The position numbers and the translations under genes are program-made. The notes below the pieces were generated by a model that ran no database searches, was not told where the DNA came from, and saw only the letters and a program-made list of their open reading frames with translations. Positions 6,290 to 35,252 of a stretch of 42,696 nt of DNA are shown in pieces (the first letter of the stretch is position 1; each line of letters begins with the position of its first letter). This DNA comes from Candidatus Woesearchaeota archaeon (GTDB taxonomy: Archaea; Nanobdellota; Nanobdellia; Pacearchaeales; GW2011-AR1): positions 1 to 42,696 of the forward strand of contig CAZUXN010000003.1 of the NCBI GenBank assembly GCA_964624735.1. Direction: 5' to 3'.

Positions 6290-7117
6290 ATGTCTAAGAT
6301 AAAGTTTGGTCCGACGGGGATTGGGTCGGTTGGGGAGGCGGTTGCGAATTTGGAGATGTATGCTAAGTTAGGGTTTCGGGTGGCGGAGGTTTTGTTTACT
6401 TATGGGGTTTATATTAAAGAGAGGGAGGATGCTTTGAGGATTGGGCGGGTCGCGAAGAAGTTGGGGATTTATCTTTCTGTTCATGCGCCGTATTGGATTA
6501 ATTTGAATTCGAAGGACGAGAAGAAAGTTGAGATGTCGAAGAAGAGGATTTTGAAATGTTGCGAAGTCGCGTCGTGGCTTGGGGCGAAGCGAGTTGTTTT
6601 TCATCCTGGATACTATACTTCGATTTCTTCGAAGTTGAAGTCGCCTGTCGCTGGTCGCCTGTCGCTGGTCGCTGGAGAAAGTTATCAGAAAATTAAAGAG
6701 GGTATAGTTGAGATGATGGAGGTTATTAAGAAAGAGAAGTGGGATGTTGAGTTGTGTCCGGAGGTTATGGGGAAGGTGAATGTTTTTGGATCGATTGATG
6801 AGGTTGGTCGGTTGGTTCGCGAGACTGGGTGTTCTGCTTGTATTGATGTTGCTCATGTTTTGGCGAGGTATGGTTCTTATAAATTTTCTGAGATTGAGAA
6901 GGTGTTTAAGATGGAGAATTGGCATGTGCATTTTTCTGGGATTGAGTTTGGCGAGAAGGGTGAAAAGAAGCATTTGGTGACGCCTTTGTCTGAGTGGAAG
7001 AAGGTGTTGGGGTTTTTGAAGAAGTTGGATAAAGATGTTGTTTTGATTTGTGAAAGCCCCGACGCTGTTTCTGATAGCGTTGTTGGGATGAGAGTTTGGG
7101 ATGAGATGAATGCTTGA
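6290..7117 (+). CDS. nfo: endonuclease IV-like AP endonuclease (xylose-isomerase-like TIM barrel)
   Basis: HAPYWINLNS, RVVFHPGYY, CPEVMGK, CIDVAHV and WHVHFSGIEFGEKGEKKHLV follow the Endo IV metal-ligand block order. Carries an in-frame repeat insert. Confidence 0.7.
   Translation: MSKIKFGPTGIGSVGEAVANLEMYAKLGFRVAEVLFTYGVYIKEREDALRIGRVAKKLGIYLSVHAPYWINLNSKDEKKVEMSKKRILKCCEVASWLGAKRVVFHPGYYTSISSKLKSPVAGRLSLVAGESYQKIKEGIVEMMEVIKKEKWDVELCPEVMGKVNVFGSIDEVGRLVRETGCSACIDVAHVLARYGSYKFSEIEKVFKMENWHVHFSGIEFGEKGEKKHLVTPLSEWKKVLGFLKKLDKDVVLICESPDAVSDSVVGMRVWDEMNA
6617..6674 (+). repeat. hairpin ACTTCGA-N5-TCGAAGT (6617-6635) followed by a 5x 7-nt array GTCGCCT/GTCGCTG (6640-6674), in-frame in the nfo-like gene
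   Basis: Read directly from the sequence. It encodes ..TSISSKLKSPVAGRLSLVAGES.. directly after the conserved FHPGYY block. Confidence 0.9.
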
Positions 7118-14892: not shown

Positions 14893-16686
14893 ATGAGATT
14901 GGCGATTGTTCATAAGGAGAAATGTAAACCGGCAGGATGTGGGCGTGAGTGCAAGAAGTATTGTCCGGTTGAGAAAAAGGAGTTGGATAGTTGCGTGCGT
15001 GTGCGCACGAGTGGGTCGCCGGTCGCCAGTCGCCGGTCGCAGGAAGGGGGGAAAGAAGAAGAGAGTTGGGATGGGGCGAGGATTGATGAGAAGAATTGTG
15101 TTGGGTGTGCGATTTGTGTGAAGCGGTGTCCGTTTGGGGCGATTGATATTGTGAATTTGCCATCGGTGAGCGAAGGTGATTTGGTTTATCGTTATGGCGA
15201 GAATGGGTTTGCTTTGTATGGGTTGCCTATTCCTAAATCTGGGAAGGTTTTGGGATTGTTGGGTCGGAATGGGATTGGGAAGTCGACTGCTATTGAGATT
15301 TTGGCTGGGAAGATTGATGTTGATGTTTCGAAGTTTAAGAGGGGTGAATTGCAGAAATTTTTTTCAAAAATTTTAGCCAGTCGCCAGTCGCTAGTCGCCA
15401 GTCGGGTTAGTTATAAGCCGCAGAATTTGTCGGGGTTGTCGAAGGATGTCGGAGTTATGGAGTTACTGAAACAGAGAGGGAGCGAGGTGGAGATTAAGAT
15501 GTTGGCGAAGAGGTTGAATGTTGAGAATGTTCTTTCTAATAAGATGAATAAGTTGTCGGGTGGGGAGTTGCAGAGGGTTGCGATTTTGGCGGCTTCGCTT
15601 GGTAATGCTGATATTTATTTTTTCGATGAGCCGTTGGCGTTTTTGGATATTAGTGAGAGGCTTCGTGTTAGTGATTTTATTAAGGAGATTGGAAAAGATA
15701 GGACGGTGATTGTTGTTGAGCATGATTTGTTGGTTCTGGATTATTTGACGGATTATTTGAATGTGTTTTATGGGGGACAGGGGGCGTTTGGGATGGTGTC
15801 GGGGATTAAGAGTTCTAAGGAGGGTGTTAATGCTTATTTGAGGGGGTTTTTGAAAGAAGAGAATTTGAGAATTAGGGACAAGGCGTTGAGTTTTAATTTT
15901 ACGAAAAATGTTGCGGTGTTGGGAAAGAAGATTGCGGAGTGGCCTGATTTTAGTTTGAGTTTTGATAGTGGTTTTGAGTTGAGTGTTAGTGGCGGAGAGA
16001 TTAGAGAGAATCATGTGATTGGGATTTTGGGGAAGAATGGGACGGGGAAAACGTCATTCATTCGAGCTCTTGTGGGAGAACTTGAAGTTCGCAAGTCGCA
16101 AGTCGCAAGTCGCAAGTCGCGATTTGATTTGGGGTTGGATGTTAGTTATAAGTCACAGTATTTGTTTAGTGAGAGCGAGGAGTTTGTTCGGGATATTATT
16201 TTTAAAGAGAAGATAAATAAGAAATTGTCGTCGGTGTTTAATCTTGGGGTTTTGGTTGGAAAGAAATTGAAGGAGTTGTCGGGTGGTGAGTTGCAGAGAT
16301 TTAGTGTTGCGAGGTGCTTGGCGAAAGATGCAGATGTTTATTTTTTCGATGAGCCGTCGGCTTATCTGGATGTTGAGGAAAGGATTGTTGTTGCAAAGGT
16401 GATTAAGGATATTATGATAGAGAAGGAAAAGACTGCGTTTGTTGTTGACCATGATTTGCTTCTTGTTTCTTATTTGGCTGATTCGATTATTAATTTTTCG
16501 GGCGAGTCCGGAGTTTATGGAGAGGCGAGCGGGATTAGGAATTTTGAGGATGGAGTTGGCGAGTTGTTGAAGAGTTTGGATGTTACGTTGAGGAAAGATA
16601 GGGAGAGTGGGCGTCCTCGGATTAACAAGAGATGGTCGGTGCTTGATAGGGAGCAGAAGGCGAAAGGGAAGTGGGCGGTGTTTTAA
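14893..16686 (+). CDS. abce1: ABCE1 / RNase L inhibitor-type ribosome-recycling ATPase
   Basis: N-terminal Fe-S Cys clusters CKPAGCGRECKKYCP and CVGCAICVKRCP. Two NBDs with Walker A GRNGIGKST and GKNGTGKTS, and signature LSGGELQR twice. Contains three in-frame repeat inserts. Confidence 0.95.
   Translation: MRLAIVHKEKCKPAGCGRECKKYCPVEKKELDSCVRVRTSGSPVASRRSQEGGKEEESWDGARIDEKNCVGCAICVKRCPFGAIDIVNLPSVSEGDLVYRYGENGFALYGLPIPKSGKVLGLLGRNGIGKSTAIEILAGKIDVDVSKFKRGELQKFFSKILASRQSLVASRVSYKPQNLSGLSKDVGVMELLKQRGSEVEIKMLAKRLNVENVLSNKMNKLSGGELQRVAILAASLGNADIYFFDEPLAFLDISERLRVSDFIKEIGKDRTVIVVEHDLLVLDYLTDYLNVFYGGQGAFGMVSGIKSSKEGVNAYLRGFLKEENLRIRDKALSFNFTKNVAVLGKKIAEWPDFSLSFDSGFELSVSGGEIRENHVIGILGKNGTGKTSFIRALVGELEVRKSQVASRKSRFDLGLDVSYKSQYLFSESEEFVRDIIFKEKINKKLSSVFNLGVLVGKKLKELSGGELQRFSVARCLAKDADVYFFDEPSAYLDVEERIVVAKVIKDIMIEKEKTAFVVDHDLLLVSYLADSIINFSGESGVYGEASGIRNFEDGVGELLKSLDVTLRKDRESGRPRINKRWSVLDREQKAKGKWAVF
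14994..15042 (+). repeat. hairpin CGTGCG-TGTG-CGCACG (14994-15009) followed by a 4x 7-nt array GTCGCCG/GTCGCCA/GTCGCCG/GTCGCAG (15015-15042)
   Basis: Read directly. It encodes ..CVRVRTSGSPVASRRSQ.. between the two Fe-S Cys clusters of ABCE1. Confidence 0.9.
15376..15405 (+). repeat. ~4x 7-nt array GCCAGTC/GCCAGTC/GCTAGTC/GCCAGTC in ABCE1 NBD1
   Basis: Encodes ASRQSLVASR immediately before VSYKPQ. An AT-only 8-bp hairpin (15355-15373) lies just upstream but is probably native sequence. Confidence 0.9.
16078..16120 (+). repeat. palindrome GAACTT-G-AAGTTC (16078-16090) running into a 4x AAGTCGC array (16093-16120) in ABCE1 NBD2
   Basis: Encodes GELEVRKSQVASRKSR, a few codons before VSYKSQ. This is the loop equivalent to the NBD1 array site. 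Confidence 0.9.
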
Positions 16687-16994: not shown

Positions 16995-18647
16995 ATGAGG
17001 GAGATTATTGTTAATTTGATTTCGAAGGAAGTCGGGGAGGATGTTTCTAATTTAGTTGAGGTTCCGCCGAAAGAGGAGATGGGGGATTTTGCGTTTCCGT
17101 GTTTTGAGTTGGCGAAGAAGATGAGTAAGTCGCCTGTTGTTATCGCTGAGGATTTTGTTGGGAAGTTTCGGAAGAAGTTGCCCAAGGGTGTTGAGCGGGT
17201 TGATGCAAAAGGGGCTTATGTGAATTTTTTTGTTGATAATAAGATTTTGGCGGAGAGGGTATTTGCCGAGAAGAAGAGGGCTGTGAAGAAGAGAGGGAAG
17301 ATTGTGATTGATATGTCGTCGCCGAATATTGCGAAGCCGTTTGGGATTGGGCATTTGAGGTCGACGATTATCGGGAATTCGATTGGGAAGATTTGCGAGG
17401 CGAATGGGTTTGAAGTTACGAAAATTAATTATCTTGGAGATTGGGGGACGCAGTTTGGGAAGGTTATTTTTGGGTTTAAGAAATGGGGGAGCGAGGTGAA
17501 GTTGAAGAAGAATTCTATCGAGCATTTGTATGAGTTGTATGTTCGGGCTAGTGAGGAGGAGTTTGAGGATGAGACTCGTGAGGAATTTAGGAAGTTGGAG
17601 AGTGGTGACTCTGATAATGTTAAGTTATGGAAGAAGTTTAGGAAGTTGTCGTTGGAAGAGTTTGATGAGATTTATGATTTGCTTGGGGTTAAGTTTGATG
17701 TTGTTAGTGGAGAGAGTTTTTATAATGGAAAGATGGATGGTGTTGTCGAAGAATTAAGGAAGAGGAAATTATTGAAGAAGGATGATGGGGCGGAGATTGT
17801 TGATTTGGAGAGAGATGGGCTTGGGGTTGTGTTAATTCAGAAATCTGATGGGACTTCGCTTTATGTGACGAGGGATTTGGCTGCTGCGATTGATAGGAAA
17901 AAGAAATATAGATTTAATAGGATGATTTATGAGGTTGGGAATGAGCAGGTTTTGCATTTTAAGCAGTTGTTTCGGATTCTTGATAAGATGGGGTATAAAT
18001 GGGCGAAGGATTGTGTTCATGTTGCACATGGTTTGTATTTGGGTGGGGATGGGAAGAAGTTTGCGACGAGGAAGGGGAAGAGTGTTTTTATGAGGGATGT
18101 TTTGAGAGAAGTTATTGAGAAGGCGAGGCTTCGCTTGTCGGGAGTCGGAAGTCGGAAGTCGGAAGTCGGAAAGCTGGAGTTGGATTTGAGGGCGAGGAAG
18201 ATTGCGTTGGCGGCGATTTTTTATGGGGATTTGAAGAATTCACGGGAGAGTAATATGGTTTTTGATGTTGATAGGTTTTTGAGTTTTGAGGGGGACACGG
18301 GGCCATATTTATTGTATTCGTATGCGAGGGCTGCTTCGCTTTTGAGAAAGCGAAGGGGTCGTGGGTCGTGGGTCGTGGGTCGTGGGTTTAATGTTAGTGA
18401 GGTTCGGCTGTTGAAGAAGATTGATTCTTTTAGAGATGTTGTCGTGAGGGCTTATGAGAATTTGGCGCCGAATTTTGTTGCGAATTATTGTTTTGAGTTG
18501 GCGACGTTGTTTAATGAGTTCTATCATTCGTGTCCTGTGATTGGTTCAAATGAAGAAGGATTTAGGTTGAAGTTGGTTAAGAAGTTTAAGGAAGTTTTGG
18601 GAGAGGGGTTGGGTTTGTTGGGGATTGAGACTTTGGAGAGTATGTGA
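16995..18647 (+). CDS. argS: arginine--tRNA ligase
   Basis: SSPNIAKPFGIGHLRSTIIGN (HIGH-equivalent region), GDWGTQFG, SDGTSLYVTRDLAA, and a C-terminal DALR-type anticodon-binding domain. The start is at Met19 of the ORF, 23 nt after a TATA-like ATTAATAA. Carries two repeat inserts. Confidence 0.92.
   Translation: MREIIVNLISKEVGEDVSNLVEVPPKEEMGDFAFPCFELAKKMSKSPVVIAEDFVGKFRKKLPKGVERVDAKGAYVNFFVDNKILAERVFAEKKRAVKKRGKIVIDMSSPNIAKPFGIGHLRSTIIGNSIGKICEANGFEVTKINYLGDWGTQFGKVIFGFKKWGSEVKLKKNSIEHLYELYVRASEEEFEDETREEFRKLESGDSDNVKLWKKFRKLSLEEFDEIYDLLGVKFDVVSGESFYNGKMDGVVEELRKRKLLKKDDGAEIVDLERDGLGVVLIQKSDGTSLYVTRDLAAAIDRKKKYRFNRMIYEVGNEQVLHFKQLFRILDKMGYKWAKDCVHVAHGLYLGGDGKKFATRKGKSVFMRDVLREVIEKARLRLSGVGSRKSEVGKLELDLRARKIALAAIFYGDLKNSRESNMVFDVDRFLSFEGDTGPYLLYSYARAASLLRKRRGRGSWVVGRGFNVSEVRLLKKIDSFRDVVVRAYENLAPNFVANYCFELATLFNEFYHSCPVIGSNEEGFRLKLVKKFKEVLGEGLGLLGIETLESM
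18137..18171 (+). repeat. 5x 7-nt array GTCGGGA + 4x GTCGGAA in argS
   Basis: Encodes SGVGSRKSEVGK. 18143-18171 is identical over 29 nt to 40185-40213 in the pilus platform gene. Confidence 0.92.
18334..18385 (+). repeat. hairpin CTTCGCT-N8-AGCGAAG (18334-18355) followed by 4x GTCGTGG (18358-18385) in argS
   Basis: Encodes ..LLRKRRGRGSWVVGRG.. after the conserved YSYARAASLLRK segment. Confidence 0.9.
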
Positions 18648-19537: not shown

Positions 19538-22441
19538 TTATATTTTGTTGAATTTTATAATGAAGGATTTATTTTTTATTTTTCCCTCTTCTAAGTGACT
19601 AAACTTTTTATTTGATTCATCAAATGAGATTGTTTTTGCCCCAACCCTTTTTTGGATGAAGTTGAGTTGTGATTTTATTTTGTCATTGAATTCTGATATT
19701 ATTTCAAGTTCGATTGAATCGGATCTTGAGAGATTTGCCTTTTTTCTTGTTGCCTGAATTTTTCTTGATATTTCTCTTGCGAAGCCTTCGGATTCGAGTT
19801 CGGGGGTGATGTTTGTATCGAGTTTGATTCCCCAATCTTTTTCGTGAGCTTCTTTATATTCTATTTTTTTTATGTTTAGTTCTTCTTTTATAATTTGGTG
19901 TAATTCTTTGCTGAAGTTTTTGTAGTATTTTATTGTTGCTTTGGCGAGTGGCCATTTGATTCCGATTTGGACTTTGTCTCTTTCTCTTAGTCCTTGTGAA
20001 ACTGCCCATTTTATTTGTTCCATTTCTTGTTCGAGTTTTTTGTTGATTAATTTTTGGTTTGCTTTTGGGTAATCTTGAAGGTGGATTGATTTTTTCTTGC
20101 CGTTCATGTCTTGGTATATTTTTTCTGTTACGAATGGGATTATTGGTGCGAGGATTTTTGTTAGTTTTTCAAGGACATATCTTAATGTTTTTCTTGCGGA
20201 TTCGTCATTGGTGTTAAATCTGTCTCGCGAGTTTCTGATGTACCAAGTTGATAGGTTGTCTATGTATTTTTTTATGGATTCGCAGGCTTTTATCGTGTTG
20301 TATTCTTCGAGGGTTTTTTGGATTGTTGCATTTAGAATTTCGGTTTTTGAGATTATCCATTTGTCCATTATATGTTGGCTTGTGGCTTGTGGCTTGTCGC
20401 TTGTCGCTTGGTAGTCTTGGTAGAAGTTTGAGATGTTGTATAGCAGGACTGTGACTTGTTTGTATGTTTCTTGGAGACCTTTTTCTGAGAAGTTGAAATT
20501 TTCGGCGTTCATAACTGGTGATTGGAGCAGGTAAAATCTCAAGGTGTCTGCTCCATATTTGTCTATGACCTTGAGTGGGTCTGGATAGTTTTTTAGTGAT
20601 TTTGACATTTTTTGTCCGTTTTCTGCGAGGATTGTTCCGGTTGTTAGGACGTTTTCAAATGGGATTTTGTCGAAGAGGATTGCTGATAATGTCATCATAT
20701 AATAAAACCACGCTCTGGTTTGTGCGATGTATTCTGATACGAATTGTGCTGGGAAGTGTTTGTTGAAATATTCTTTGTTTTCAAATGGATAATGGAATTG
20801 GGCGAAGGTCATTGCCCCTGATTCGAACCAGCAGTCTAAGACTTCCGGGATTCTTTCATAGGTTTCATTTTCTATTTTTAGTTTTATGTTGTCTAATGTG
20901 TCTTTGTGTAGGTCGACAATCGGCAAAGCCGATTGTGTTTTTGGTTTTTGGTTTTTGGTTTTTGGTGAGCTGTCGATAAGCTCTTCTAATTCTTTTATTG
21001 AACCTACGACTTTTATTTTTCCTGATTTTGATTTCCAGATTGGGATTGCTGTCGCCCAGTATCTGTTTCGCGTGATGTTCCAGTCTGGTGCAGTTGAGAT
21101 GTTGTGTTGCATTCGACCTTCTTTGAGATGTTTTGGGAACCAATTGATTTTGAGGTTTAATTTTAGGAGTTTGTTTTTGATTTTTTGGATGTCGACGAAC
21201 CATGCTGGTAGGGCTCTGTATATTAGTTTTGTGTCACATCTATAGCAGAAAGGGTATTCGTGTTCCATTTTTTTTATTGCGATTGCTTTGCTGGATTTTT
21301 TTAGGTCGATTGCGATTTGTTCATTTGCGTCGTGGACGAATTGTCCTTTATAATCGCTTACTTCTTTTGTAAATTTTCCGTTTTCGTCGACGGGTTGGAC
21401 TATAGGGATGTTGTATTTTTTGCAGATGGCGTTGTCGTCTTCTCCGAATGCCGGTGCTGTGTGAACTATTCCGGTTCCGTCTTCGGCTGTTACGAAGTCG
21501 TCTAGTAAAAATTGGAAAGAGTTTGGGTTGTTTTTGAAGTAGGGGAATATGGGTTCGTATTTTTTGCCTTCGAGTTTTTTGCCTTTTATTTCTTCTGTGA
21601 TTGTGTATTCATCTTTGGATTTATAGAATTTTGGAATTAGTTTTTTTGCGAGGAGATATGTGTTTCCGTCGTCTTTGTCTTTGATGTATGCGTATGTTAG
21701 TTTTGGGTTGACTGTTAGTGCAAGGTTACTCGGGAGAGTCCATGGGGTTGTTGTCCATGCCAAAGCAAAAACTTCGTTTTTGCTTTCGGTGTTCGGTGTT
21801 CGGTGTGTCGGTGTGTCGGAGAGTTTGAATTTCACGACGATGGTCGTGTCTTTTATAATTTTGTAAGAATTGTCCATTGCGATTTCGGATTTTGATAATG
21901 GGGTCGAACATCGTGGACAGTAGAGCAGGATTTTTTCGCCTTCGTATAGGTATCCTTTTTCGTAGAGTTGTTTGAATGCCCACCAGACTGATTCGATGTA
22001 GTTTGTGTCCATTGTTTTGTAGCCGTCTTTGAAATCTACCCATCTTCCGATTTTGTCGATGTATTTTTCCCAGTCGTTGGCGTAGGTCAAAACTTTTGAG
22101 CGGCAGAAATCGTTGAATTTTTTGATGCCTATCTTCTCAATTTCGTCTTTGGAGTTTATGCCGAGTTCTTTTTCTGCGATGTTTTCGATTGGTAGTCCGT
22201 GGCAGTCCCAGCCCCAGTTTCGTTTGACGTATCTGCCTTGCATTGTGAAGAATCTTGGGAAGACGTCTTTTAGCGTCGAGGCTAATAAATGTCCGTAGTG
22301 TGGTAGTCCGGTTGCGAATGGTGGGCCGTCGTAGAAGATGTAGGGTTTTCCTTTTTCTGTTTGCTTTAATGATTTTTCAAATGTCTTGTCTTTCTTCCAG
22401 AATTTTAGGATTTCGTTTTCTGTTTCGGAGATGGATGTCAT
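19538..22441 (-). CDS. ileS: isoleucine--tRNA ligase
   Basis: HIGH motif PHYGHLL, editing-domain signature WTTTPWTLPSN, and KMSKS (GQKMSKSLKNY). Carries three repeat inserts. Confidence 0.95.
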   Translation of the reverse strand: MTSISETENEILKFWKKDKTFEKSLKQTEKGKPYIFYDGPPFATGLPHYGHLLASTLKDVFPRFFTMQGRYVKRNWGWDCHGLPIENIAEKELGINSKDEIEKIGIKKFNDFCRSKVLTYANDWEKYIDKIGRWVDFKDGYKTMDTNYIESVWWAFKQLYEKGYLYEGEKILLYCPRCSTPLSKSEIAMDNSYKIIKDTTIVVKFKLSDTPTHRTPNTESKNEVFALAWTTTPWTLPSNLALTVNPKLTYAYIKDKDDGNTYLLAKKLIPKFYKSKDEYTITEEIKGKKLEGKKYEPIFPYFKNNPNSFQFLLDDFVTAEDGTGIVHTAPAFGEDDNAICKKYNIPIVQPVDENGKFTKEVSDYKGQFVHDANEQIAIDLKKSSKAIAIKKMEHEYPFCYRCDTKLIYRALPAWFVDIQKIKNKLLKLNLKINWFPKHLKEGRMQHNISTAPDWNITRNRYWATAIPIWKSKSGKIKVVGSIKELEELIDSSPKTKNQKPKTQSALPIVDLHKDTLDNIKLKIENETYERIPEVLDCWFESGAMTFAQFHYPFENKEYFNKHFPAQFVSEYIAQTRAWFYYMMTLSAILFDKIPFENVLTTGTILAENGQKMSKSLKNYPDPLKVIDKYGADTLRFYLLQSPVMNAENFNFSEKGLQETYKQVTVLLYNISNFYQDYQATSDKPQATSQHIMDKWIISKTEILNATIQKTLEEYNTIKACESIKKYIDNLSTWYIRNSRDRFNTNDESARKTLRYVLEKLTKILAPIIPFVTEKIYQDMNGKKKSIHLQDYPKANQKLINKKLEQEMEQIKWAVSQGLRERDKVQIGIKWPLAKATIKYYKNFSKELHQIIKEELNIKKIEYKEAHEKDWGIKLDTNITPELESEGFAREISRKIQATRKKANLSRSDSIELEIISEFNDKIKSQLNFIQKRVGAKTISFDESNKKFSHLEEGKIKNKSFIIKFNKI
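20374..20409 (+). repeat. 5x 7-nt array (GTTGGCT)TGTGGCT/TGTGGCT/TGTCGCT/TGTCGCT in ileS (gene on the minus strand)
   Basis: Read on the + strand. It encodes QATSDKPQATSQ on the minus strand. Confidence 0.9.
20916..20964 (+). repeat. hairpin ACAATCGGC-AAA-GCCGATTGT (20916-20936) abutting 4x GTTTTTG (20937-20964) in ileS
   Basis: Perfect 9-bp stem. Together the hairpin and array encode SSPKTKNQKPKTQSALPIV just N-terminal of the DLHKD block. Confidence 0.9.
21762..21819 (+). repeat. hairpin AAAGCAAAAAC-TTC-GTTTTTGCTTT (21762-21786) running into a 7/8-nt array TGTTCGG x2 and TGTGTCGG x2 (to 21819) in ileS
   Basis: Perfect 11-bp stem. The low-coordinate arm encodes VFAL of VFALAWTTTPWT (native), and the other arm encodes ESKN. 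The array encodes TPTHRTPNT. Confidence 0.9.
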
Positions 22442-24355: not shown

Positions 24356-25216
24356 ATGAAACTTGTTGATGTGCATGCGCATTTGGAACATTCGAGGTTT
24401 GAGAAGGATTTGGATGAGGTTGTTGATAGGTTTGTCGAGGCTGGCGGGGAGTTGGTTGTTACTAGTGGGGTTAATCCTGAGACGAATCGGAAGGCCTTGG
24501 AGTTGGCTGGAAAATATGATTGTGTTCGGGTTTCGTTTGGGCTTTATCCGATTGATGCTTTAGCTAAGGAGGTTGAGGCGTCGAGTGATTTTTTGAGGGA
24601 GATAAAAAATTTTGATGTTGATGAGGAGTTGGGATGGATTGAGGAGCACAAGGATGATTGTGTTGCGATTGGTGAGGTTGGGTTGGATTATTCGGACGAA
24701 GTTTCGTCCGAAGGTGTCAGGTGTCAGGATTCAGGTGTCAGAATGAGGGAAAAACAGAAGGAGGTTTTTCGGAAGGTGTTGAGGTTGGCGAAGAGGATAG
24801 ATAAGTGTGTGGTTGTTCATTCGAGGAAGGCGGAGGGGGATGCGGTTGAGATTTTGGAGGAGGAGTCCCGGTTAGATAGCGAGCATCAAACGGGACAAGG
24901 GAGATTGAAGGTTGTGATGCATTGTTTTAATGGGCGGAAGAGTTTGATTAAGAGGGGTGTTGAGAATGGGTGGTTTTTTTCGGTACCTCCTGTGATTGTT
25001 AGACTTGAGCATTTTAAGATGTTGGTTTCTCTTGTTCCGCTTGGGCAACTTTTGACTGAGACTGATGCGCCGTATTTGTCTCCGGTTGTTGGGGAGAGGA
25101 ATGAGCCGGCTAATGTTTTTGTGACGTTGAAGGAGATTGCTCGGATTAAAGGTTTGAGTGTTGAGGAGGTTTCTTCTGTGGTGTTTGAGAATTTTGAGAG
25201 GGTGTTTGGGGGTTGA
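24356..25216 (+). CDS. tatD: TatD-family metal-dependent hydrolase/DNase
   Basis: DVHAHL, GEVGLDY, VVHSRKA, HCFNG and ETDAPYL are the TatD metal-ligand blocks. Confidence 0.88.
   Translation: MKLVDVHAHLEHSRFEKDLDEVVDRFVEAGGELVVTSGVNPETNRKALELAGKYDCVRVSFGLYPIDALAKEVEASSDFLREIKNFDVDEELGWIEEHKDDCVAIGEVGLDYSDEVSSEGVRCQDSGVRMREKQKEVFRKVLRLAKRIDKCVVVHSRKAEGDAVEILEEESRLDSEHQTGQGRLKVVMHCFNGRKSLIKRGVENGWFFSVPPVIVRLEHFKMLVSLVPLGQLLTETDAPYLSPVVGERNEPANVFVTLKEIARIKGLSVEEVSSVVFENFERVFGG
24691..24741 (+). repeat. hairpin TTCGGACGAA-GT-TTCGTCCGAA (24691-24712) followed by 4x 7-nt array GTGTCAG/GTGTCAG/GATTCAG/GTGTCAG (24714-24741) in tatD
   Basis: Perfect 10-bp arms starting right after the GLDY codons. 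Encodes SDEVSSEGVRCQDSGVR. Confidence 0.92.
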
Positions 25217-27245: not shown

Positions 27246-27246
27246 G

Positions 27247-27639
27247 ATGCCAGTTTGTGGATTTAATGAGAAGATGATTGAAGGTTTATATGGTTTTAGT
27301 GCGGGACTTATTGAGCATGGGCTTAAGTTTAGGGGTGAGAAGAATGGGGAGACTATTGAGCAGGGGATTAAGCGGGAATTGTCTGATATGGCTCGTCTTT
27401 TAGCTGAGGTTCATAAGATTAATGATAGTGCTAAGCGGCTTTTGACGGAAGGGATTGTGAAGTATGCTATGGGGTTTTATATGGTTATGAGAAAGAAAGG
27501 GGTTGAGAATTATGAGAGTGATGTTTCTAAGTTAATGAATTATTTTGAGGCGATGGATGCTAAATATTATGGTGAGCTTGAGGGAAGGGCTGATGATATG
27601 GGTGAGTTGGTTAAATTTTTGGATGGGGTTAAGATTTAG
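27247..27639 (+). CDS. unknown-function protein, MPxCGFNE family, copy 2
   Basis: 130 aa. Starts 1 nt after the copy 1 stop and is a clear paralogue. Confidence 0.7.
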   Translation: MPVCGFNEKMIEGLYGFSAGLIEHGLKFRGEKNGETIEQGIKRELSDMARLLAEVHKINDSAKRLLTEGIVKYAMGFYMVMRKKGVENYESDVSKLMNYFEAMDAKYYGELEGRADDMGELVKFLDGVKI

Positions 27640-28360: not shown

Positions 28361-28362
28361 TT

Positions 28363-29328
28363 TTATTTTTTGTTGATTGGTTTTTTAATGTTTGGCCATT
28401 TGTCGGTGAGGGTTGGTTCGTTGGATTGGTAGATTATTCCGAGTGGGATTTTGCCGGATTTGGAGTTGTAGTCGAATTCATCGGCGAGTTTTTCTGCGGT
28501 TTGTTTGTCTTTGTTATCTTTTATTTTGTACATTAGTTTGTCTTTGTTGTTGGCGTCGAGGTTGAAGATGAGGCAGTCTTGGATGACTTCGACGAATGAG
28601 AATCCGTTGTGGGCGATTGCTTTTGAGAATGTTTCGACCATGTGCGGGATGTCGCGGGCGTTTGTTCTTGCGATGAATGTTGCGTTTGATGCTAATGCTA
28701 GTTTGATTGGGTTGAATGGTTTGTCTTTGACGCCGAGGGGATTTGCTTTTGAGATGTATCCTTGTTGGGAGGTTGGGGTTGGTTGGCCGGTTGTTAGAGA
28801 GAAGGATTGGTTGTCGTGGAGGATTAGGGTCATGTCGGGGTTGTATTTGAAGGCGTGGATGAAGTGGGCGATTCCTTCGGAGTAGACTCCGCCGTCGCCG
28901 GCGAATGTTATGACTTTGAGGTTCGGGTTTGCGAGCGTTATTCCAATTGCTGTCGGTATTGCGCGGCCGTGGAGGCAGTAGATTCCGGAGAGGTTTAGGT
29001 AGTCGAAGATTTTTGCATGACATCCTATATCTGTCGTCATGCAAAAATCTAGTTCGCTTCGCTGTGAGTTCGCTTCGCTGTGAGTGTCGGCTTTGCCGAC
29101 GAGTTTGCTTTGACTTTGTCGAAGCTGTGAGTTCGACTTGTTAGGATTTGATATTAGGTTTGTTATGGTTTGTTTGACTGCTTCTAATATCATGTGATTT
29201 GGGCAGCCGGGGCACCAGGTCAACTCCGAGGGAGTTGACAGACTGGCTTTGTCTGTCAGACCTCTTCGCTGTGAGACCTCTTCGCTGTGAGACCTCTTCG
29301 TTGTCAGATTGGCTGTTTTTGGGTTCAT
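28363..29328 (-). CDS. korB: 2-oxoacid:ferredoxin oxidoreductase beta subunit
   Basis: WCPGCPNH, DIGCHAK and the TPP motif GDGGVYSEG..HDNQSFSLTTGQ. It has an N-terminal extension and an internal insert, both built from hairpins and 16-nt repeats. Confidence 0.9.
   Translation of the reverse strand: MNPKTANLTTKRSHSEEVSQRRGLTDKASLSTPSELTWCPGCPNHMILEAVKQTITNLISNPNKSNSQLRQSQSKLVGKADTHSEANSQRSELDFCMTTDIGCHAKIFDYLNLSGIYCLHGRAIPTAIGITLANPNLKVITFAGDGGVYSEGIAHFIHAFKYNPDMTLILHDNQSFSLTTGQPTPTSQQGYISKANPLGVKDKPFNPIKLALASNATFIARTNARDIPHMVETFSKAIAHNGFSFVEVIQDCLIFNLDANNKDKLMYKIKDNKDKQTAEKLADEFDYNSKSGKIPLGIIYQSNEPTLTDKWPNIKKPINKK
29007..29137 (+). repeat. 15-bp perfect fold-back (29007-29021 / 29036-29050), 2x 16-mer AGTTCGCTTCGCTGTG (29051-29082), hairpins GTCGGC-TTT-GCCGAC (29086-29100) and GTCGAA-N8-TTCGAC (29118-29137)
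   Basis: Read directly, inside korB. The low-coordinate arm encodes CHAKI of the conserved DIGCHAKIF block. Confidence 0.92.
29219..29318 (+). repeat. hairpins GTCAACTCC-GAG-GGAGTTGAC (29219-29239) and GACAGAC-N7-GTCTGTC (29237-29257), then ~4x 16-mer GTSAGACCTCTTCGCT (29255-29318)
   Basis: Read directly. It forms the first ~36 codons of korB, upstream of WCPGC. Confidence 0.92.
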
Positions 29329-29795
29329 TATATTTTTTTTAACATTTTAGTTTTGAATGGCCTGAAGTTATTTTTAATGCAAAATTTTTCAGCGAGGGAG
29401 TTCCCTGAGACGAATTCCCATAATATAAAATTTGCTTTTACTTCTTTTCCCCATTTTTCAATTTCTAATAAAAGTTTTTTCCCAATTCCTTTTCTTTTGT
29501 ATTTGCTATATATGTCAATTATTTCTATGACTTTTTTGTTTGTTTTGCTTTGTTTGTTTGGGATTATTTCTGCTTGAATAAATCCGCAGATTTTATTGTT
29601 TTTTTCAGCGATTAAAAAAGGTTTATTTTTTGTATTTTTTATTCTGTTTTTTAATCCTGTTTCTAATTCTTTTTTGTTGATTTTTGGGATTTCATTTGGA
29701 AGGTATTTTGAAAATCTAATATTATGTTCAAGCAGTTCTACATATAATGGGATAATTTTTTTGATGTCTTTTTTTATTGCCTTTCTAATTTTCAT
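29328..29795 (-). CDS. GNAT-family N-acetyltransferase
   Basis: Motif A YKRKGIGKKLLLEIEKW. Its start overlaps the korA stop by 4 nt and its stop overlaps the korB start by 1 nt. Confidence 0.85.
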   Translation of the reverse strand: MKIRKAIKKDIKKIIPLYVELLEHNIRFSKYLPNEIPKINKKELETGLKNRIKNTKNKPFLIAEKNNKICGFIQAEIIPNKQSKTNKKVIEIIDIYSKYKRKGIGKKLLLEIEKWGKEVKANFILWEFVSGNSLAEKFCIKNNFRPFKTKMLKKI

Positions 29796-31339
29796 ATTAT
29801 TTCTTTGATTAGTTCGTTTAGTTCGTCGGAGTGGAAGGGGCGGCCGTTGTATTTTAGGAGTCGGTTTTTGATTTTGATTCCGGTTTTTTCTCTGATTAAT
29901 CTGCCGAGTTGTCCGGTGACGTTACATTCTACTAGGATTACTTTGTTTGCGGCTTCGAGTTCTTCTTTAATTTTTGGGGAGAGCGGTTTGCAGTAGAGGA
30001 CTTGGAGGAATTTGGCGTCGAGGTTTTTGATTGCGTCTTTGATTGCGCCGGATGTTGAGCCCCAGCCGATGATTAAGTTTTTTGAGTTTTTGTTGCCGTG
30101 GATTTTTATCATTTCGAAATTTTTCTGGATGTATTTTTTTATGTTTTTGTATTTTTCGACTCGTTTGTTTGCGTTGTCTTCGGTGATTGTGTATGATTCT
30201 GTTGTGTTGCCGAGTTTGTCTGTTTCGTAGGATGATGCTTTGATGATTGATTGTCCCGGGAGTTTTCTTGTAATTTGGATTTTTGTGGTTGGTTTAGGTT
30301 TTGCCGTTGAGGAAAACTCGGATTCGGCGAGGTGTTTGTCCGAGAGGATTATTGAGAGTGTTTGGAATTTTTCGGCGAGGAATAATGCTTCGGAAGTTTT
30401 TTCGATTGTTTCGGTTGGGTTGCTTGGAGCGACGACGATTCGTGGGAATTCGCCGTGTCCTGCTCGGAGTGCGATGTCGAGATCGGCTTGTGCGGTATAA
30501 GTTGGGACTCCCGTCGCTGGTCCGGGTCTTGAGGCTAGGTAGATTGTTAGTGGGATTCCAGATTGTCCTTGTAGGGATAATGTTTCTCCCATTAAATCGA
30601 AGCCGCCGCCTGATGTTCCGATTAGTGTTTTTGCTCCGGCGAATGATGCTCCGATTGCCATGCTACCGACGGCGATTTCATTTTCGGCTTGGAAGACTGT
30701 CATGTTAGCCGTTAGCTGTTGGCCGTTAGCTGTTGGCTTTTGGAGTTTGGCGAGTTCGTGCATTGCGTTTGTTGCTGGGGTCATTGGGTAGGCGATGTAT
30801 AAGTTTATTCCGGAGTTTATTGTTCCTATTGCTATTGCTTGATTTCCTGATAGGATTGTTGTTTTGTTATTTAATTTTTTTAATTGTTGTTTTGTTTCTT
30901 GTGAGTCGAATCCTTTTTTTGCTGAGATAATTGCTTTGTTTGATTCTTTGAATTGAGATTTGATTTCGTTGTTTAATTCTTCGAGAGGGATGCCGAGGAT
31001 TTTTATTAGTGAGCCGGCGAGTGCGATGTTTATATTTCGTCCTTCGTTTTTGAATTTGTCGGCGGTGATTATTATGCCGTCTTTTTTTAGAGCCTGTTTG
31101 TGGATTTTGATTGATTGTTTGTCGAGTGCGATAAGGATGTCTGTTTTTGATTCGTGGGATTCGATTGGTTTGTCGGATATTGTTAGGGCGTTGAAGTTGT
31201 GGCCGCCGCGGATTAAGGATTGATAGTCTCGGTAGTTGAAAGTGAAGTAGCCGTGTTTGGATAGGATGTTTGAGATTATTTGAGAGACTTTATTGATTCC
31301 CTGTCCTGCCTCGCCACCGATTAGGATTGTCAGTTTCAT
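29792..31339 (-). CDS. korA: 2-oxoacid:ferredoxin oxidoreductase alpha subunit (gamma-alpha fusion type)
   Basis: N-terminal gamma-like GGEAGQGINKVS..RGGHN, then the alpha domain GNQAIAIG..AYPMTPAT. Confidence 0.9.
   Translation of the reverse strand: MKLTILIGGEAGQGINKVSQIISNILSKHGYFTFNYRDYQSLIRGGHNFNALTISDKPIESHESKTDILIALDKQSIKIHKQALKKDGIIITADKFKNEGRNINIALAGSLIKILGIPLEELNNEIKSQFKESNKAIISAKKGFDSQETKQQLKKLNNKTTILSGNQAIAIGTINSGINLYIAYPMTPATNAMHELAKLQKPTANGQQLTANMTVFQAENEIAVGSMAIGASFAGAKTLIGTSGGGFDLMGETLSLQGQSGIPLTIYLASRPGPATGVPTYTAQADLDIALRAGHGEFPRIVVAPSNPTETIEKTSEALFLAEKFQTLSIILSDKHLAESEFSSTAKPKPTTKIQITRKLPGQSIIKASSYETDKLGNTTESYTITEDNANKRVEKYKNIKKYIQKNFEMIKIHGNKNSKNLIIGWGSTSGAIKDAIKNLDAKFLQVLYCKPLSPKIKEELEAANKVILVECNVTGQLGRLIREKTGIKIKNRLLKYNGRPFHSDELNELIKEII
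30704..30738 (+). repeat. 5x 7-nt array GTTAGCC/GTTAGCT/GTTGGCC/GTTAGCT/GTTGGCT in korA
   Basis: Encodes KPTANGQQLTAN (gene on the minus strand). Confidence 0.9.
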
Positions 31340-34912: not shown

Positions 34913-34933
34913 GGTTTTGTTAGTTTGTTTTTT

Positions 34934-35189: not shown

Positions 35190-35214
35190 TTGAAAATCGG
35201 AGATTTTCAAGTGG

Positions 35215-35249: not shown

Positions 35250-35252
35250 AAT

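What the first reader, a model, noticed from the sequence alone, without database searches (positions are those of the whole stretch)
29007..29137. korB: 15-bp perfect fold-back whose one arm is the conserved IGC-motif coding sequence, followed by 16-mer repeats and two more hairpins
AGATTTTTGCATGAC (29007-29021) pairs perfectly with GTCATGCAAAAATCT (29036-29050) across a 14-nt loop. The low-coordinate arm encodes CHAKI(F) of DIGCHAKIF, which I recognise as the conserved KorB block. The other arm reads DFCMT and opens a ~35-aa segment (NKSNSQLRQSQSKLVGKADTHSEANSQRSELDFCMT) absent from the usual WCPGC-to-IGC spacing. That segment consists of 2x AGTTCGCTTCGCTGTG, then GTCGGC-TTT-GCCGAC, then GTCGAA-N8-TTCGAC. 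A 15-bp perfect inverted repeat inside an essential TPP enzyme gene in an AT-rich genome is very unlikely by chance. It is the clearest evidence in the window for an inverted duplication at the junction.
Basis: partly seen in the sequence, partly recalled or inferred. Interest (0 to 1): 0.8.

Follow-up and report, generated by a model that had tools for sequence, protein, structure and literature searches.

The report
Hairpin plus tandem-repeat insert in korB
The perfect fold-back in this archaeal oxidoreductase gene is real, and it is one of many "hairpin next to a short tandem repeat" modules written in frame into essential genes of this genome, always with the same polarity on the DNA strand, which points to a replication-linked template-switching process rather than a feature special to korB.

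Summary
The repeat is the longest perfect one in the 42.7-kb contig, and an independent assembly reproduces the region with 0 mismatches.

DFCMT is not part of the extra segment. It is the native beta-strand (DFAITT in most of the 120 orthologues), and both arms lie at native positions. The real insert is 90 nt at 29051-29140, a net +26 aa. It consists of GACTTG, decayed units, a GC hairpin and 16-nt units whose core AGCGAAGCG contains the d(GCGAAGC) mini-hairpin.

The same module type sits at the korB N-terminus and in korA. Relatives (DPANN archaea) carry it at the same loops and in unrelated housekeeping genes.

Across the window, 16 short arrays, mostly period 7, lie in frame in 10 genes. 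Ten of about 18 arrays examined, including one outside any ORF, have a perfect hairpin just before them on the G-rich strand, whatever the gene orientation.

Close orthologues show that the arm next to the array is often an inverted copy of the conserved arm. This favours snap-back template switching plus reiterative synthesis. That mechanism is inferred, not shown.

The parts
28363..29328 (-). 2-oxoacid:ferredoxin oxidoreductase beta subunit gene (korB/porB-like), 321 aa, carrying two repeat modules
   Evidence: ORF. Pfam TPP_enzyme_C 3.4e-28 and PFO_beta_C. PDB 5b48_B/5b46_B StOFOR beta at 5e-42. 2203 homologues, the closest from DPANN MAGs.
29007..29021 (-). Arm of the 15-bp fold-back distal to the array; encodes (C)HAKI(F) of the conserved DIGCHAKIF block
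   Evidence: Among 120 orthologues C103, K106 and F108 are invariant and I107 is in 116.
29022..29035 (-). 14-nt loop of the fold-back; encodes TTDIG
29036..29050 (-). Arm of the fold-back next to the array; encodes DFCM(T). These are native beta-strand positions (DFAIT in most orthologues), and the sequence is the exact inverted complement of the distal arm.
   Evidence: The canonical DNA (GAT TTC GCA ATC) has only about 5 bp of complementarity, and L081 has 10 bp.
29051..29085 (-). Two perfect 16-nt units (+ strand AGTTCGCTTCGCTGTG; sense ACTCACAGCGAAGCGA), encoding THSEANSQRSEL in two frames. The core AGCGAAGCG contains the d(GCGAAGC) mini-hairpin.
   Evidence: Mini-hairpin: PMC13037366.
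29086..29100 (-). GC hairpin of the module: GTCGGC-TTT-GCCGAC, a weakened form of the family's GGGCGAC-TTT-GTCGCCC
29101..29134 (-). L081 keeps AGTCGAAGCGAAC where W reads AGTCAAAGCAAAC.
29135..29140 (-). Conserved module terminus GACTTG (sense CAAGTC); the far boundary of the 90-nt insert
   Evidence: The same terminus follows the GC hairpin or array in L081, L083 (two sites), L141, L161 and L170, with one-base variants in L086 (AACTTG) and L177 (GACTTA).
29219..29239 (-). 9-bp perfect hairpin GTCAACTCC-GAG-GGAGTTGAC encoding (L)STPSELT just upstream of WCPGC. The arm distal to the array covers the conserved SE.T.
   Evidence: Relatives keep a hairpin here with matched changes on both arms (L083 GTCACTTC/GAAGTGAC).
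29237..29257 (-). Second, overlapping fold-back GACAGAC-TGGCTTT-GTCTGTC between that hairpin and the N-terminal array
   Evidence: Read directly from the sequence.
29253..29308 (-). N-terminal array, 3-3.5 x 16 nt (sense GTCTCACAGCGAAGAG), encoding TTKRSHSEEVSQRRGL; same family as the internal array
   Evidence: pLDDT is below 50 for residues 5-25.
30703..30743 (-). 14-nt (2 x 7) array in korA, +8 aa in the loop ELAK|NQIxN. L002 has a heptamer array at this loop and L082 a 16-mer array.
18334..18387 (+). Hairpin CTTCGCTTT-TGAG-AAAGCGAAG abutting (GGGTCGT)x4.6, inside ArgRS
20916..20966 (-). Hairpin ACAATCGGC-AAA-GCCGATTGT abutting (GTTTTTG)x4.3, inside IleRS. The unit derives from native CCAAAAAAA, and the arm next to the array is a new inverted copy of native LP..I.
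21762..21819 (-). 11-bp hairpin AAAGCAAAAAC-TTC-GTTTTTGCTTT abutting (TTCGGTG)x4.7, inside IleRS. L371 has a different hairpin and a different array at the same site; L372 has neither.
24691..24741 (+). Hairpin TTCGGACGA-AGTT-TCGTCCGAA abutting (AGGTGTC)x4.3, inside TatD; +8/9 aa versus L084
15355..15404 (+). Hairpin AAATTTTT-TTC-AAAAATTT (native QKFFSKI) 2 nt from (GCCAGTC)x4.1, inside ABCE1
14994..15040 (+). Hairpin CGTGCG-TGTG-CGCACG 4 nt from (GGTCGCC)x3.9, inside ABCE1
6617..6675 (+). Hairpin ACTTCGA-TTTCT-TCGAAGT 4 nt from (GTCGCCT GTCGCTG)x2.4

Best explanation
The fold-back and the 16-mers together form one copy of a recurrent module, [perfect hairpin][short tandem array]. This genome and its close DPANN relatives carry such modules in frame in surface loops and N-termini of housekeeping genes.

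On the G-rich strand the order is always: arm on conserved native sequence, loop, arm next to the array, array. This holds whichever strand the gene is on.

The most likely origin is replication-linked template switching. The growing strand copies the native sequence. It then folds back and copies itself, which makes or perfects the hairpin by writing an inverted copy of the conserved arm over the neighbouring, less constrained codons. On its return to the template it stutters, leaving 4-5 copies of a 7-nt unit or about 4.3 copies of a 16-nt unit.

Selection then keeps only products that preserve the reading frame and fall in tolerant loops, and these are translated as disordered, hydrophilic peptide.

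The korB array belongs to a dispersed 16-nt family: GACTTG terminus, GC hairpin, and a core that contains the very stable d(GCGAAGC) mini-hairpin. This family may spread by copy-choice between loci. The korB copy is an old, partly decayed member shared with genome L081.

Shown: the anatomy, the polarity, the hairpin-array association, in-frame insertion at recurrent loops, and native versus derived arms at several sites. Inferred: the replication link, the order of events, the polymerase involved and the way the 16-nt family spreads.
For: (1) Recurrence. There are 16 short arrays, mostly period 7, in frame in 10 genes of the window: korA, korB, IleRS, ArgRS, ABCE1, TatD, a diphthine-synthase-like gene and others.

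(2) Association and polarity. Of about 18 arrays examined in the window, 10 (9 in ORFs and 1 just 3' of the SRP RNA) have a perfect 6-15-bp hairpin 0-13 nt away, always on the low-coordinate side. Six are in or beside + strand genes and four are in - strand genes. In 20 skewed loci of the clade, 16 of 57 arrays have a stem of 6 bp or more within 5 nt on the 5' side of the G-rich strand, against 1.4% of random positions. For stems of 8 bp or more the figures are 13 of 57 against 0.4%, and none of that size lies on the other side.

(3) Hairpin and array appear together. At IleRS loop A, L372 has neither, W has one pair, and L371 has a different array and a different hairpin.

(4) Derived versus native arm. 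At IleRS site B the native sequence CCA AAA AAA ATA GAT becomes (ACCAAAA)n + ACAATCGGC-TTT-GCCGATTGT. The unit comes from native sequence, the far arm is native LP..I, and the near arm is new. In korB the far arm is the conserved CHAKI. The near arm GATTTTTGC is an exact inverted copy of GCAAAAATC, whereas canonical orthologues read GATTTCGCA.

(5) Matched changes on both arms across relatives: N-terminal hairpin GTCAACTC/GAGTTGAC versus GTCACTTC/GAAGTGAC, and L083 GACGCAAAA/TTTTGCGTC.

(6) Translation. Every array keeps its ORF open and in frame. The two korB repeat segments have pLDDT below 50 (residues 5-25 and 64-87).

(7) Copy numbers cluster at 3.9-5.0, with one at 7.7, for period 7 and at 4.0-4.4 for period 16. 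This fits steps of three units, the only in-frame step.

(8) Precedent. Quasipalindrome template-switch mutation in E. coli (PMC7202029), snap-back templated extension and structure-driven end joining (PMC4912351, PMC5728401), and short-range template switching in human genomes (PMC9435742).
Against: (1) Net length changes versus orthologues are roughly 0, +15, +21, +24, +24, +42 and +54 nt. These are not simple multiples of 7, and some arrays overwrite native sequence with no net change (IleRS site C; the korB loop in L002 and L003). Simple slippage is therefore insufficient and the stutter step is not understood.

(2) The 16-nt family has a conserved core, hairpin and terminus in unrelated genes. 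Local copying of native sequence does not explain that.

(3) The korB insert is 97% identical between W and L081 (3 differences in 110 nt) while the gene is about 85% identical. This is odd for neutral, disordered filler.

(4) At the korB junction itself the 15-bp repeat can be reached from the 10-bp ancestral repeat by three ordinary transitions. M at residue 97 occurs in 6 of 120 orthologues and C at residue 96 in 9 of 120, so chance is not excluded at this one site.

(5) About half of the arrays have no perfect hairpin beside them.

(6) Replication direction is inferred from skew only.
Confidence: 0.55

Rival explanations
1. The 16-nt module is a non-autonomous mobile element, a MITE-like selfish repeat comparable to Rickettsia palindromic elements. 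It inserts in frame next to host hairpins and is then amplified locally. The fold-back is its target or a by-product of integration.
For: A conserved terminus (GACTTG), GC hairpin (GGGCGAC-TTT-GTCGCCC) and core (CGCTTCGCT NNN AGWY) occur in unrelated genes: korA, korB, GatD-like, Trm5-like, Bud32-like, PHP-domain and IleRS. L083 has two near-identical copies about 190 nt apart in one gene. The insert is much better conserved than its flanks. In-frame insertion of palindromic repeats into metabolic genes is documented for RPEs (PMC10969869).
Against: No terminal inverted repeats or target-site duplications were seen. No transposase was linked to the modules. The heptamer arrays share the same hairpin adjacency and polarity but have no conserved sequence, and at least one derives from native sequence. 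Different array types hit the same loops. W's 42.7 kb holds 16-nt modules only in korB.
Confidence: 0.25
2. The hairpins and arrays are selected functional elements. They could act at the mRNA level (translational pausing for cofactor or Fe-S insertion, or mRNA stability) or at the DNA level (protein binding or priming sites), and compensatory change maintains them.
For: The region is strongly structured (z about -5.6 to -5.9). Nucleotide conservation of the korB insert is high. Hairpins are kept with matched changes on both arms in relatives. GCGAAGC-type mini-hairpins are reported at priming and origin sites (PMC13037366).
Against: Most orthologues lack the modules: 102 of 120 have the plain WCPGC-to-DIGC spacing of 36 or 32 residues. 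Array sequences differ completely between lineages at the same loop. Polarity follows the DNA strand, not the mRNA. There is no Rfam match. The modules sit in many unrelated genes with no common position relative to start codons or domains.
Confidence: 0.1
3. The 15-bp palindrome is a coincidence of codon choice in two conserved peptides (DFCM and HAKI happen to be codon-wise complements) and has no connection with the neighbouring insert.
For: D/F and K/I codons are natural complements. A 10-bp version exists in L081. The extra 5 bp need only three transitions, at two synonymous sites and one tolerated I/M site.
Against: It is the longest perfect inverted repeat in the contig, and shuffles never exceeded 11 bp. 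It abuts the array at distance 0, as do four other hairpin-array pairs in the window. L082 and L083 have different perfect hairpins at the same junction. The A->C change needs a clustered multi-nucleotide change that produces an exact inverted copy.
Confidence: 0.08
4. Assembly or amplification artefact, for example a chimeric fold-back.
For: Fold-back chimeras are a known artefact of some amplification methods (from general knowledge).
Against: A second assembler gives the identical sequence. A homologous insert is present in other samples and genomes. The ORF is intact and in frame.
Confidence: 0.02

Closest known systems
Quasipalindrome-associated template-switch mutations (E. coli and yeast; PMC7202029, bioRxiv 10.1101/2023.08.09.552703) and short-range template switching in primate genomes (PMC9435742, PMC7954356)
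   Same: An imperfect inverted repeat is made perfect by copying one arm from the other. The result is clustered multi-nucleotide changes without a length change, linked to replication.
   Different: Here the hairpin is systematically followed by a tandem array, with fixed strand polarity. The events are frequent enough to mark many essential genes in 43 kb. None of this has been reported for archaea in the papers I could search.
Snap-back and templated insertions in alternative end joining (Pol theta, SD-MMEJ; PMC4912351, PMC5728401; group II intron-like RTs, bioRxiv 10.1101/2022.03.14.484287)
   Same: A 3' end folds back on itself or slips on a nearby template, leaving inverted and direct repeats at a junction, in iterated rounds.
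   Different: No Pol theta is known in archaea (from general knowledge). The products here are regular arrays with a 7-nt or (9+7k)-nt period and near-constant size, and they are strand-polar, which suggests fork-associated events rather than random breaks.
Rickettsia palindromic elements (RPEs), in-frame MITE-like repeats (PMC10969869 and references therein)
   Same: Short palindromic repeat families are inserted in frame in unrelated metabolic and housekeeping genes and are tolerated at positions compatible with the fold.
   Different: RPEs are about 150 bp with a conserved encoded peptide and no internal tandem array. The elements here are 30-100 nt, built of tandem units read in three frames, sit next to a host-derived hairpin, and are found in archaea.
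d(GCGAAGC) extraordinarily stable DNA mini-hairpin (PMC13037366)
   Same: Every 16-nt unit carries GCGAAGC on the C-rich strand.
   Different: Known from phage origins and priming sites and from in-vitro work, not as the core of coding-region tandem arrays. Whether it forms here is untested.
Heptanucleotide tandem repeats of cyanobacteria (STRR; from memory) and the excess of heptameric repeats noted in bacteria (PMC4692102)
   Same: 7-nt tandem units in several sequence families within one genome.
   Different: As I recall, STRRs are mainly intergenic and not tied to an adjacent hairpin. Here the arrays are inside essential genes.
Perfect tandem repeats of Borg elements that create disordered protein regions (from memory; not retrieved)
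   Same: Fast-evolving perfect tandem repeats inside ORFs add disordered segments.
   Different: As I recall, Borg in-gene repeat units are multiples of three. Here the units are 7 and 16 nt, so one unit is read in three frames and only three-unit steps keep the frame.

Membership tests
2-oxoacid:ferredoxin oxidoreductase beta subunit (KorB/PorB/OFOR-beta) | C-terminal TPP-binding domain with the GDG...N motif | tested here: met
   Pfam TPP_enzyme_C 3.4e-28 over residues 100-248. G144, D145, G146 and N173 are invariant in 120 orthologues.
2-oxoacid:ferredoxin oxidoreductase beta subunit (KorB/PorB/OFOR-beta) | N-terminal WCPGC and DIGC cysteine motifs, and similarity to solved OFOR beta chains | tested here: met
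   WCPGC at residues 38-42 and DIGC at 100-103. 5b48_B at 5e-42; also 6n2n_B and 8ys5_C.
2-oxoacid:ferredoxin oxidoreductase beta subunit (KorB/PorB/OFOR-beta) | Adjacent alpha (gamma-alpha fused) subunit gene | tested here: met
   29792-31339 has POR + POR_N. A GNAT gene lies between alpha and beta, as in relatives. Substrate specificity (2-oxoglutarate versus pyruvate) was not tested.
Quasipalindrome template-switch product | One arm is an inverted copy of the other, and the changes relative to the ancestor are clustered and all increase complementarity | tested here: met
   korB: GATTTCGCA -> GATTTTTGC, the exact complement of GCAAAAATC. W then extends from 10 to 15 bp by 3 changes, all of which increase pairing. 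IleRS sites A and B.
Quasipalindrome template-switch product | Dependence on replication direction or strand | tested here: inconclusive
   Polarity follows the GC-skewed strand in 10 of 10 (window) and 16 of 16 (clade) cases. The replication direction itself is not known.
Simple replication slippage of a native microsatellite | The unit pre-exists in the native sequence | tested here: inconclusive
   Met at IleRS site B (CCAAAAA from CCAAAAAAA). Not met for the 16-nt family, whose core is the same in unrelated genes.
Simple replication slippage of a native microsatellite | The length difference from array-free orthologues is a whole number of units | tested here: not met
   Net changes are about 0, 15, 21, 24, 24, 42, 54 and 78 nt.
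MITE / RPE-like mobile repeat | Dispersed multicopy family with conserved sequence in unrelated loci | tested here: met
   The 16-nt family has a common core, GC hairpin and GACTTG terminus in at least 7 different genes across relatives. This does not hold for the heptamer arrays.
MITE / RPE-like mobile repeat | Terminal inverted repeats and target-site duplication | tested here: not met
   None were seen at the boundaries of korB, korA or the other modules.
MITE / RPE-like mobile repeat | A cognate autonomous element or transposase | not tested
   Only 42.7 kb of the genome is available, and I did not screen it for transposase genes.
Programmed translational bypass elements (T4 gene 60, mitochondrial byps) | The insert is not translated: stop codons or frame breaks are tolerated inside it, with matched take-off and landing codons | tested here: not met
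   All 16 in-gene arrays and both korB modules are stop-free and keep the frame. This is the pattern expected only if they are translated.
Rfam RNA families | A match to a curated covariance model | tested here: not met
   No family reaches threshold in 28363-29328. The only hits in the window are 3 tRNAs and the SRP RNA.

The most novel reading that the evidence does not exclude
A clade of DPANN archaea with extreme strand asymmetry harbours a previously undescribed, strand-polar mutational process: fold-back copying followed by reiterative synthesis with a 7-nt quantum. Array periods are 7, 14, 16 = 9+7 and 23 = 9+14. The process continually writes hairpin-plus-tandem-array modules into essential genes and creates new disordered protein segments. 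One self-propagating 16-nt family is built on the d(GCGAAGC) mini-hairpin. The modules would then be a fossil record of replication direction and of the behaviour of the clade's replisome or primase.
Probability: 0.4. Interest if true: 0.8.

Novelty: new variant of a known kind. Interest (0 to 1): 0.66.

Why it matters
If the reading is right, five things follow.

1. It shows a concrete way in which new peptide segments are added to highly conserved enzymes (aminoacyl-tRNA synthetases, ABCE1, OFOR) in tiny, reduced genomes.
2. It gives a sequence signature that reports strand and probably fork direction in organisms that cannot be cultured.
3. It provides a natural data set, with many independent events and array-free orthologues, for studying template switching and hairpin-induced repeat formation. 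These processes are otherwise studied with reporter genes or in human disease loci.
4. It places the d(GCGAAGC) mini-hairpin inside living genomes as the core of an expanding repeat.
5. It warns that such inserts, which are read in three frames, will mislead alignments, phylogenies and domain annotation of DPANN proteins.

For korB itself the insert is most likely a tolerated passenger in a surface loop, with no role in catalysis.

Tried and rejected
1. Rfam scan of the whole window found nothing in korB.

2. Is a 16-nt period a universal property of AGCGAAGCG arrays? A variable-gap scan of viral contigs showed no preference for 16 nt. The more than 120 metagenome hits with GC 0.29-0.73 were forced to that period by my own pattern. 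The core alone is therefore not diagnostic of one family. Only the subset with GC about 0.4 and skew of -0.3 to -0.5 belongs with this clade.

3. Is the GNAT gene between korA and korB a recent insertion linked to the N-terminal array? Rejected, because the arrangement is conserved in relatives.

4. Is M97 unique to this genome, which would have been strong evidence for templated conversion? Rejected. M occurs in 6 of 120 orthologues.

5. Is the hairpin always pre-existing native sequence? Rejected. L084 (TatD) and L372 (IleRS) have no hairpin at the homologous sites.

6. Is the hairpin always inserted DNA? Also rejected. In korB, ABCE1 site 2 and TatD the arms occupy native positions.

7. Is the heptamer unit related to the adjacent hairpin arm or loop? 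No relation was seen.

8. The AlphaFold model was of limited quality (mean pLDDT 63). I used it only to show low confidence over the two repeat segments and did not send it to a fold search.

9. Literature searches for DPANN or Pacearchaeota with tandem repeats, GC skew or heptanucleotides returned nothing relevant.
Full report
**1. What is at the coordinates**

The minus strand of 28363-29328 encodes a 321-aa beta subunit of a two-subunit 2-oxoacid:ferredoxin oxidoreductase.
- Pfam gives TPP_enzyme_C at 3.4e-28 and PFO_beta_C.
- The best solved relatives are the Sulfolobus OFOR beta chains 5b48_B and 5b46_B, at 5e-42.
- The gene lies downstream of an acetyl-CoA synthetase, a fused gamma-alpha subunit and a GNAT gene. 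Relatives keep the GNAT gene between alpha and beta.
- The closest homologues come from Pacearchaeota, Woesearchaeota and Nanoarchaeota MAGs, that is, DPANN archaea.

- The 15-bp perfect inverted repeat is at 29007-29021 / 29036-29050 with a 14-nt loop.
- The two perfect 16-mers are at 29051-29085.
- GTCGGC-TTT-GCCGAC is at 29086-29100, and GTCGAA-N8-TTCGAC is at 29118-29137.

The 15-bp stem is the longest perfect inverted repeat in the contig. Forty dinucleotide shuffles never gave more than 11 bp. The 146-nt region folds with z = -5.6 as DNA and -5.9 as RNA.

A Logan assembly of SRR9700624 reproduces window 28214-29730 without a mismatch, so the features are not a quirk of one assembler.

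**2. Where the insert really is**

I aligned 120 orthologues.
- The WCPGC-to-DIGC spacing is 36 residues in 88 of them, 32 in 14 and 30 in one. The window has 62.
- The residues at the window's DFCMT positions are D (106/120), F (110), A (104; C in 9), I (111; M in 6) and T (116).

DFCMT is therefore the native beta-strand that leads into DIGC. It is strand 95-99 in the AlphaFold model. It is not the start of the insert.

The PDB alignment shows the same thing: query residues 63->97 face chain residues 36->40.

The extra DNA is 29051-29140, 90 nt covering codons 63-93, a net +26 aa. The model has pLDDT below 50 over residues 64-87 and 5-25.

It has three 16-nt units (sense GTCTCACAGCGAAGAG) at 29253-29308 and encodes an N-terminal extension.

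**3. The insert is a DNA-level repeat family**

I recovered DNA from relatives L081-L085. In all of them, extra residues at these two korB sites are arrays of 16-nt units with the invariant core AGCGAAGCG on the coding, C-rich strand. One N-terminal array has a 23-nt period. Motifs such as SEAN, QRSEL, AKRS and HSEAV are the same unit read in three frames.

On the G-rich strand the module reads:
- host hairpin;
- AGWY (CGCTTCGCT NNN AGWY)n;
- a GC hairpin, GGGCGAC-TTT-GTCGCCC;
- GACTTG.

The window's internal module is a decayed member. It has two perfect units, a weakened GC hairpin, two eroded units and the GACTTG end at 29135-29140. L081 still reads AGTCGAAGCGAAC where the window reads AGTCAAAGCAAAC. 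Those two G->A changes on the coding strand are C->T on the + strand.

The core contains d(GCGAAGC), the classic very stable DNA mini-hairpin. Its Tm is 76.5 C, it resists nucleases, and a related mini-hairpin sequence binds SSB poorly (PMC13037366).

The same family occurs in other genes of related, strongly skewed contigs: korA (L082), GatD-like, Trm5-like, Bud32-like, a PHP-domain gene and IleRS.

Units are 100% identical within an array but differ between orthologous arrays. In the GatD-like gene the variable part is GGTAGTC, GGTAGAC, GGTAGAT or GGTGGGA. The arrays therefore turn over quickly.

Arrays with this core are not confined to the clade, and they have no general 16-nt preference in viruses. 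The core alone does not define one family.

**4. The fold-back is one case of a general architecture**

Tandem Repeats Finder shows the window is full of short, nearly perfect arrays inside ORFs. Most have period 7, 4-5 copies and 27-35 nt. Sixteen arrays lie in frame in ten genes, including IleRS, ArgRS, ABCE1, TatD, a diphthine-synthase-like gene, korA and korB.

Of about 18 arrays examined, ten (nine in ORFs and one just 3' of the SRP RNA) have a perfect hairpin of 6-15 bp 0-13 nt from the array. The hairpin is always on the low-coordinate side. Six cases are in or beside + strand genes and four are in - strand genes.

Five abut at distance 0:
- 18334-18355 | 18356
- 20916-20936 | 20937
- 21762-21786 | 21785
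- 24691-24712 | 24712
- 29007-29050 | 29051

I then took 20 skewed loci of the clade and oriented each with the G-rich strand up.

| Measure | Arrays (n = 57) | Random positions |
|---|---|---|
| Stem of 6 bp or more within 5 nt, 5' side | 16 (28%) | 1.4% |
| Stem of 8 bp or more within 5 nt, 5' side | 13 (23%) | 0.4% |
| Stem of 8 bp or more, other side | 0 | 0.1% |

The only stems on the 3' side are the family-specific GC hairpins of the 16-nt modules.

The + strand of the whole contig is extremely asymmetric: A .23, C .115, G .276, T .377, with GC skew of about +0.1 to +0.65 in every 1-kb window. The closest relatives share this. Module polarity follows this strand, not the direction of transcription.

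**5. What close orthologues show about origin**

IleRS (19538-22441, minus strand) has close relatives with and without modules.

*Site B.* This insert is absent from all but two of the 22 aligned orthologues, and those two carry unrelated inserts. The native sequence TCA/TTA CCR AAA AAA ATA GAT has become TCA CCAAAA(ACCAAAA)3 AC | ACAATCGGC-TTT-GCCGATTGT | C GAC.
- The heptamer comes from native CCAAAAAAA.
- The far arm is the native LP..I.
- The near arm is new and is its inverted complement.

*Site A.*
- L372 has neither array nor hairpin.
- The window has an array plus AAAGCAAAAAC-GAA-GTTTTTGCTTT.
- L371 has a different array, (CCAACTC)4, plus a different hairpin, AGCAATTGC-TAC-GCAATTGCT.
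- In both W and L371 the far arm covers the conserved (V)YAL/AIA residues, and the near arm overwrites less conserved ones.

*Site C.* The array replaces 14 codons with no net length change.

Other genes show similar things.
- TatD: a hairpin on native positions and a +8/9-aa array.
- The diphthine-synthase-like gene: a 13-bp hairpin on the conserved LIGLG next to an N-terminal extension.
- korA: three lineages carry three different arrays in one loop.

In korB itself:
- Canonical DNA reads GAT TTC GCA ATC ... TGC CAC GCA AAA ATC, about 5 bp of complementarity.
- The window's subclade reads GATTTTTGC, the exact inverted copy of GCAAAAATC.
- L082 and L083 instead pair DFC(I/V) with upstream QK codons: ATGCAAAA-atct-TTTTGCAT and GACGCAAAA-atct-TTTTGCGTC.
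- The window pairs DFCM with HAKI.
- L002 and L003 carry heptamer arrays in this same loop with no net length change.

The N-terminal hairpin shows matched changes on both arms between lineages.

**6. Mechanism**

The facts to be explained are:
- short arrays of near-constant size;
- a perfect hairpin at one fixed side;
- polarity tied to the skewed strand;
- a near arm that copies a conserved far arm;
- units sometimes taken from native sequence;
- recurrent hits at the same loops;
- frame always kept.

The best fit is template switching during replication. The strand is copied, folds back and copies itself, which creates or perfects the hairpin. It then stutters as it returns to the template.

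On the G-rich strand the 5'->3' order is far arm, loop, near arm, array. That is the order of synthesis if this strand is the nascent leading strand. The assignment rests on skew only and is an inference.

Copy numbers cluster at about 4-5, with one array at 7.7, for period 7 and at about 4.3 for period 16. This fits selection for three-unit, in-frame steps.

Known analogues are:
- quasipalindrome template-switch mutation (PMC7202029);
- short-range template switching (PMC9435742);
- snap-back templated synthesis in end joining (PMC4912351, PMC5728401).

Three things remain unexplained.
- The 7-nt quantum. Spacers between 9-nt cores are 7 or 14 nt.
- Net length changes that are not multiples of 7.
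- The conserved sequence of the 16-nt family, and its 97% identity between W and L081 against about 85% for the gene.

The last point keeps a mobile-element reading alive (confidence 0.25). That reading resembles Rickettsia palindromic elements (PMC10969869), although I saw no terminal repeats or target duplications.

A functional RNA or DNA element is unlikely, because polarity follows the DNA strand, most orthologues lack the modules, and sequences differ between lineages.

**7. Verdict on the finding**

The palindrome does mark the junction of an insert, and an inverted-copy event is a reasonable origin. However, the DFCMT arm is overwritten native sequence rather than insert. The extra segment is 26-30 aa, not about 35. 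At this one site the last 5 bp could also have arisen by three ordinary transitions, since M97 occurs in 6 of 120 orthologues.

For korB the module is most likely a tolerated, translated, disordered passenger. The wider pattern it exposes is the interesting part. I found no description of it in the searchable literature.

Noticed in passing
window 1-42696: Extreme strand asymmetry over the whole contig: + strand A .23, C .115, G .276, T .377. GC skew is about +0.1 to +0.65 in every 1-kb window whichever strand the genes are on, and it shapes amino-acid usage (G/V/E-rich + strand genes; N/K/T/P/Q-rich - strand genes). The closest relatives (L001-L003, L081-L086) share it; more distant korB loci mostly do not. 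The protein database lists a longest contig of 42696 for a window-encoded protein, so the window appears to be a whole contig.
   Followed up: partly
window 16089-16120, 18137-18171, 20376-20410, 23146-23173, 23637-23670, 40180-40214: In-frame heptamer (or 14-nt) arrays in ABCE1, ArgRS, IleRS, a diphthine-synthase-like gene and a T2SS-F/FlaJ-like gene that have no perfect hairpin beside them. Many units read GTCG(C/G)NN on the + strand. The array at 20376-20410 replaces 14 codons with no net length change relative to orthologues.
   Followed up: partly
window 34932-35250: Archaeal SRP RNA at 34932-35191 (below the Rfam gathering score, E 1.7e-19). It is directly followed by an 11-bp perfect hairpin (35188-35212) and a 13/14-nt tandem array (35216-35250). 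This is a hairpin-array module outside any ORF, at the 3' end of an RNA gene.
   Followed up: partly
window 23804-23832: 13-bp perfect hairpin TATCAAAAAAAGG-AAA-CCTTTTTTTGATA inside the diphthine-synthase-like gene. One arm covers the conserved LIGLG start of the domain. It sits next to a 25-aa N-terminal extension with decayed GCGACCT-like units that is absent in L372.
   Followed up: partly
window 36870-36977: Perfect 51-nt x 2.1 tandem repeat, the largest repeat in the window. It lies between or overlapping small ORFs (36867-37148 minus strand, 36987-37487 plus strand). Its nature is unknown.
   Followed up: no
window 12844-12877 and 23997-24028: Heptamer or 14-mer arrays (TTAGGTA-like; GTAGCTG/GTTAGCTG) that lay in none of the 14 ORFs I checked them against, so they may be intergenic. 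They would be useful for testing whether non-coding arrays escape the three-unit copy-number rule.
   Followed up: no
window 26847-27639: Two adjacent paralogous small ORFs (132 and 130 aa, MPFCGFNE.../MPVCGFNE...). The first has no Pfam match; the second was not scanned. A 231-aa glycine-rich ORF with no Pfam match follows (27665-28360).
   Followed up: no
L082 1786-2720 and L083 3131-3559 (relatives): The spacer between korA and korB is variable. It always holds a GNAT gene, plus a nucleotidyltransferase (NTP_transf_2) pair in L082 or a weak dCMP-deaminase-like ORF in L083.
   Followed up: no
L088-L205 (metagenome hits), L206-L257 (viral hits): 16-nt-period arrays with the AGCGAAGCG core are abundant in unrelated contigs of about 50% GC from a few samples (Ga0302114, Ga0302116, Ga0302138; units such as GAGCAGCAAGCGAAGC). 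They also occur in giant-virus contigs, often in ORFs (SEASSKRSEQQAKRA...). They seem to be a separate repeat family sharing the mini-hairpin core.
   Followed up: partly
window 14402-14606 and 34283-34363: Three tRNA genes on the minus strand. They are the most C-rich stretches of the + strand, which shows that structured RNA genes resist the strand bias.
   Followed up: no
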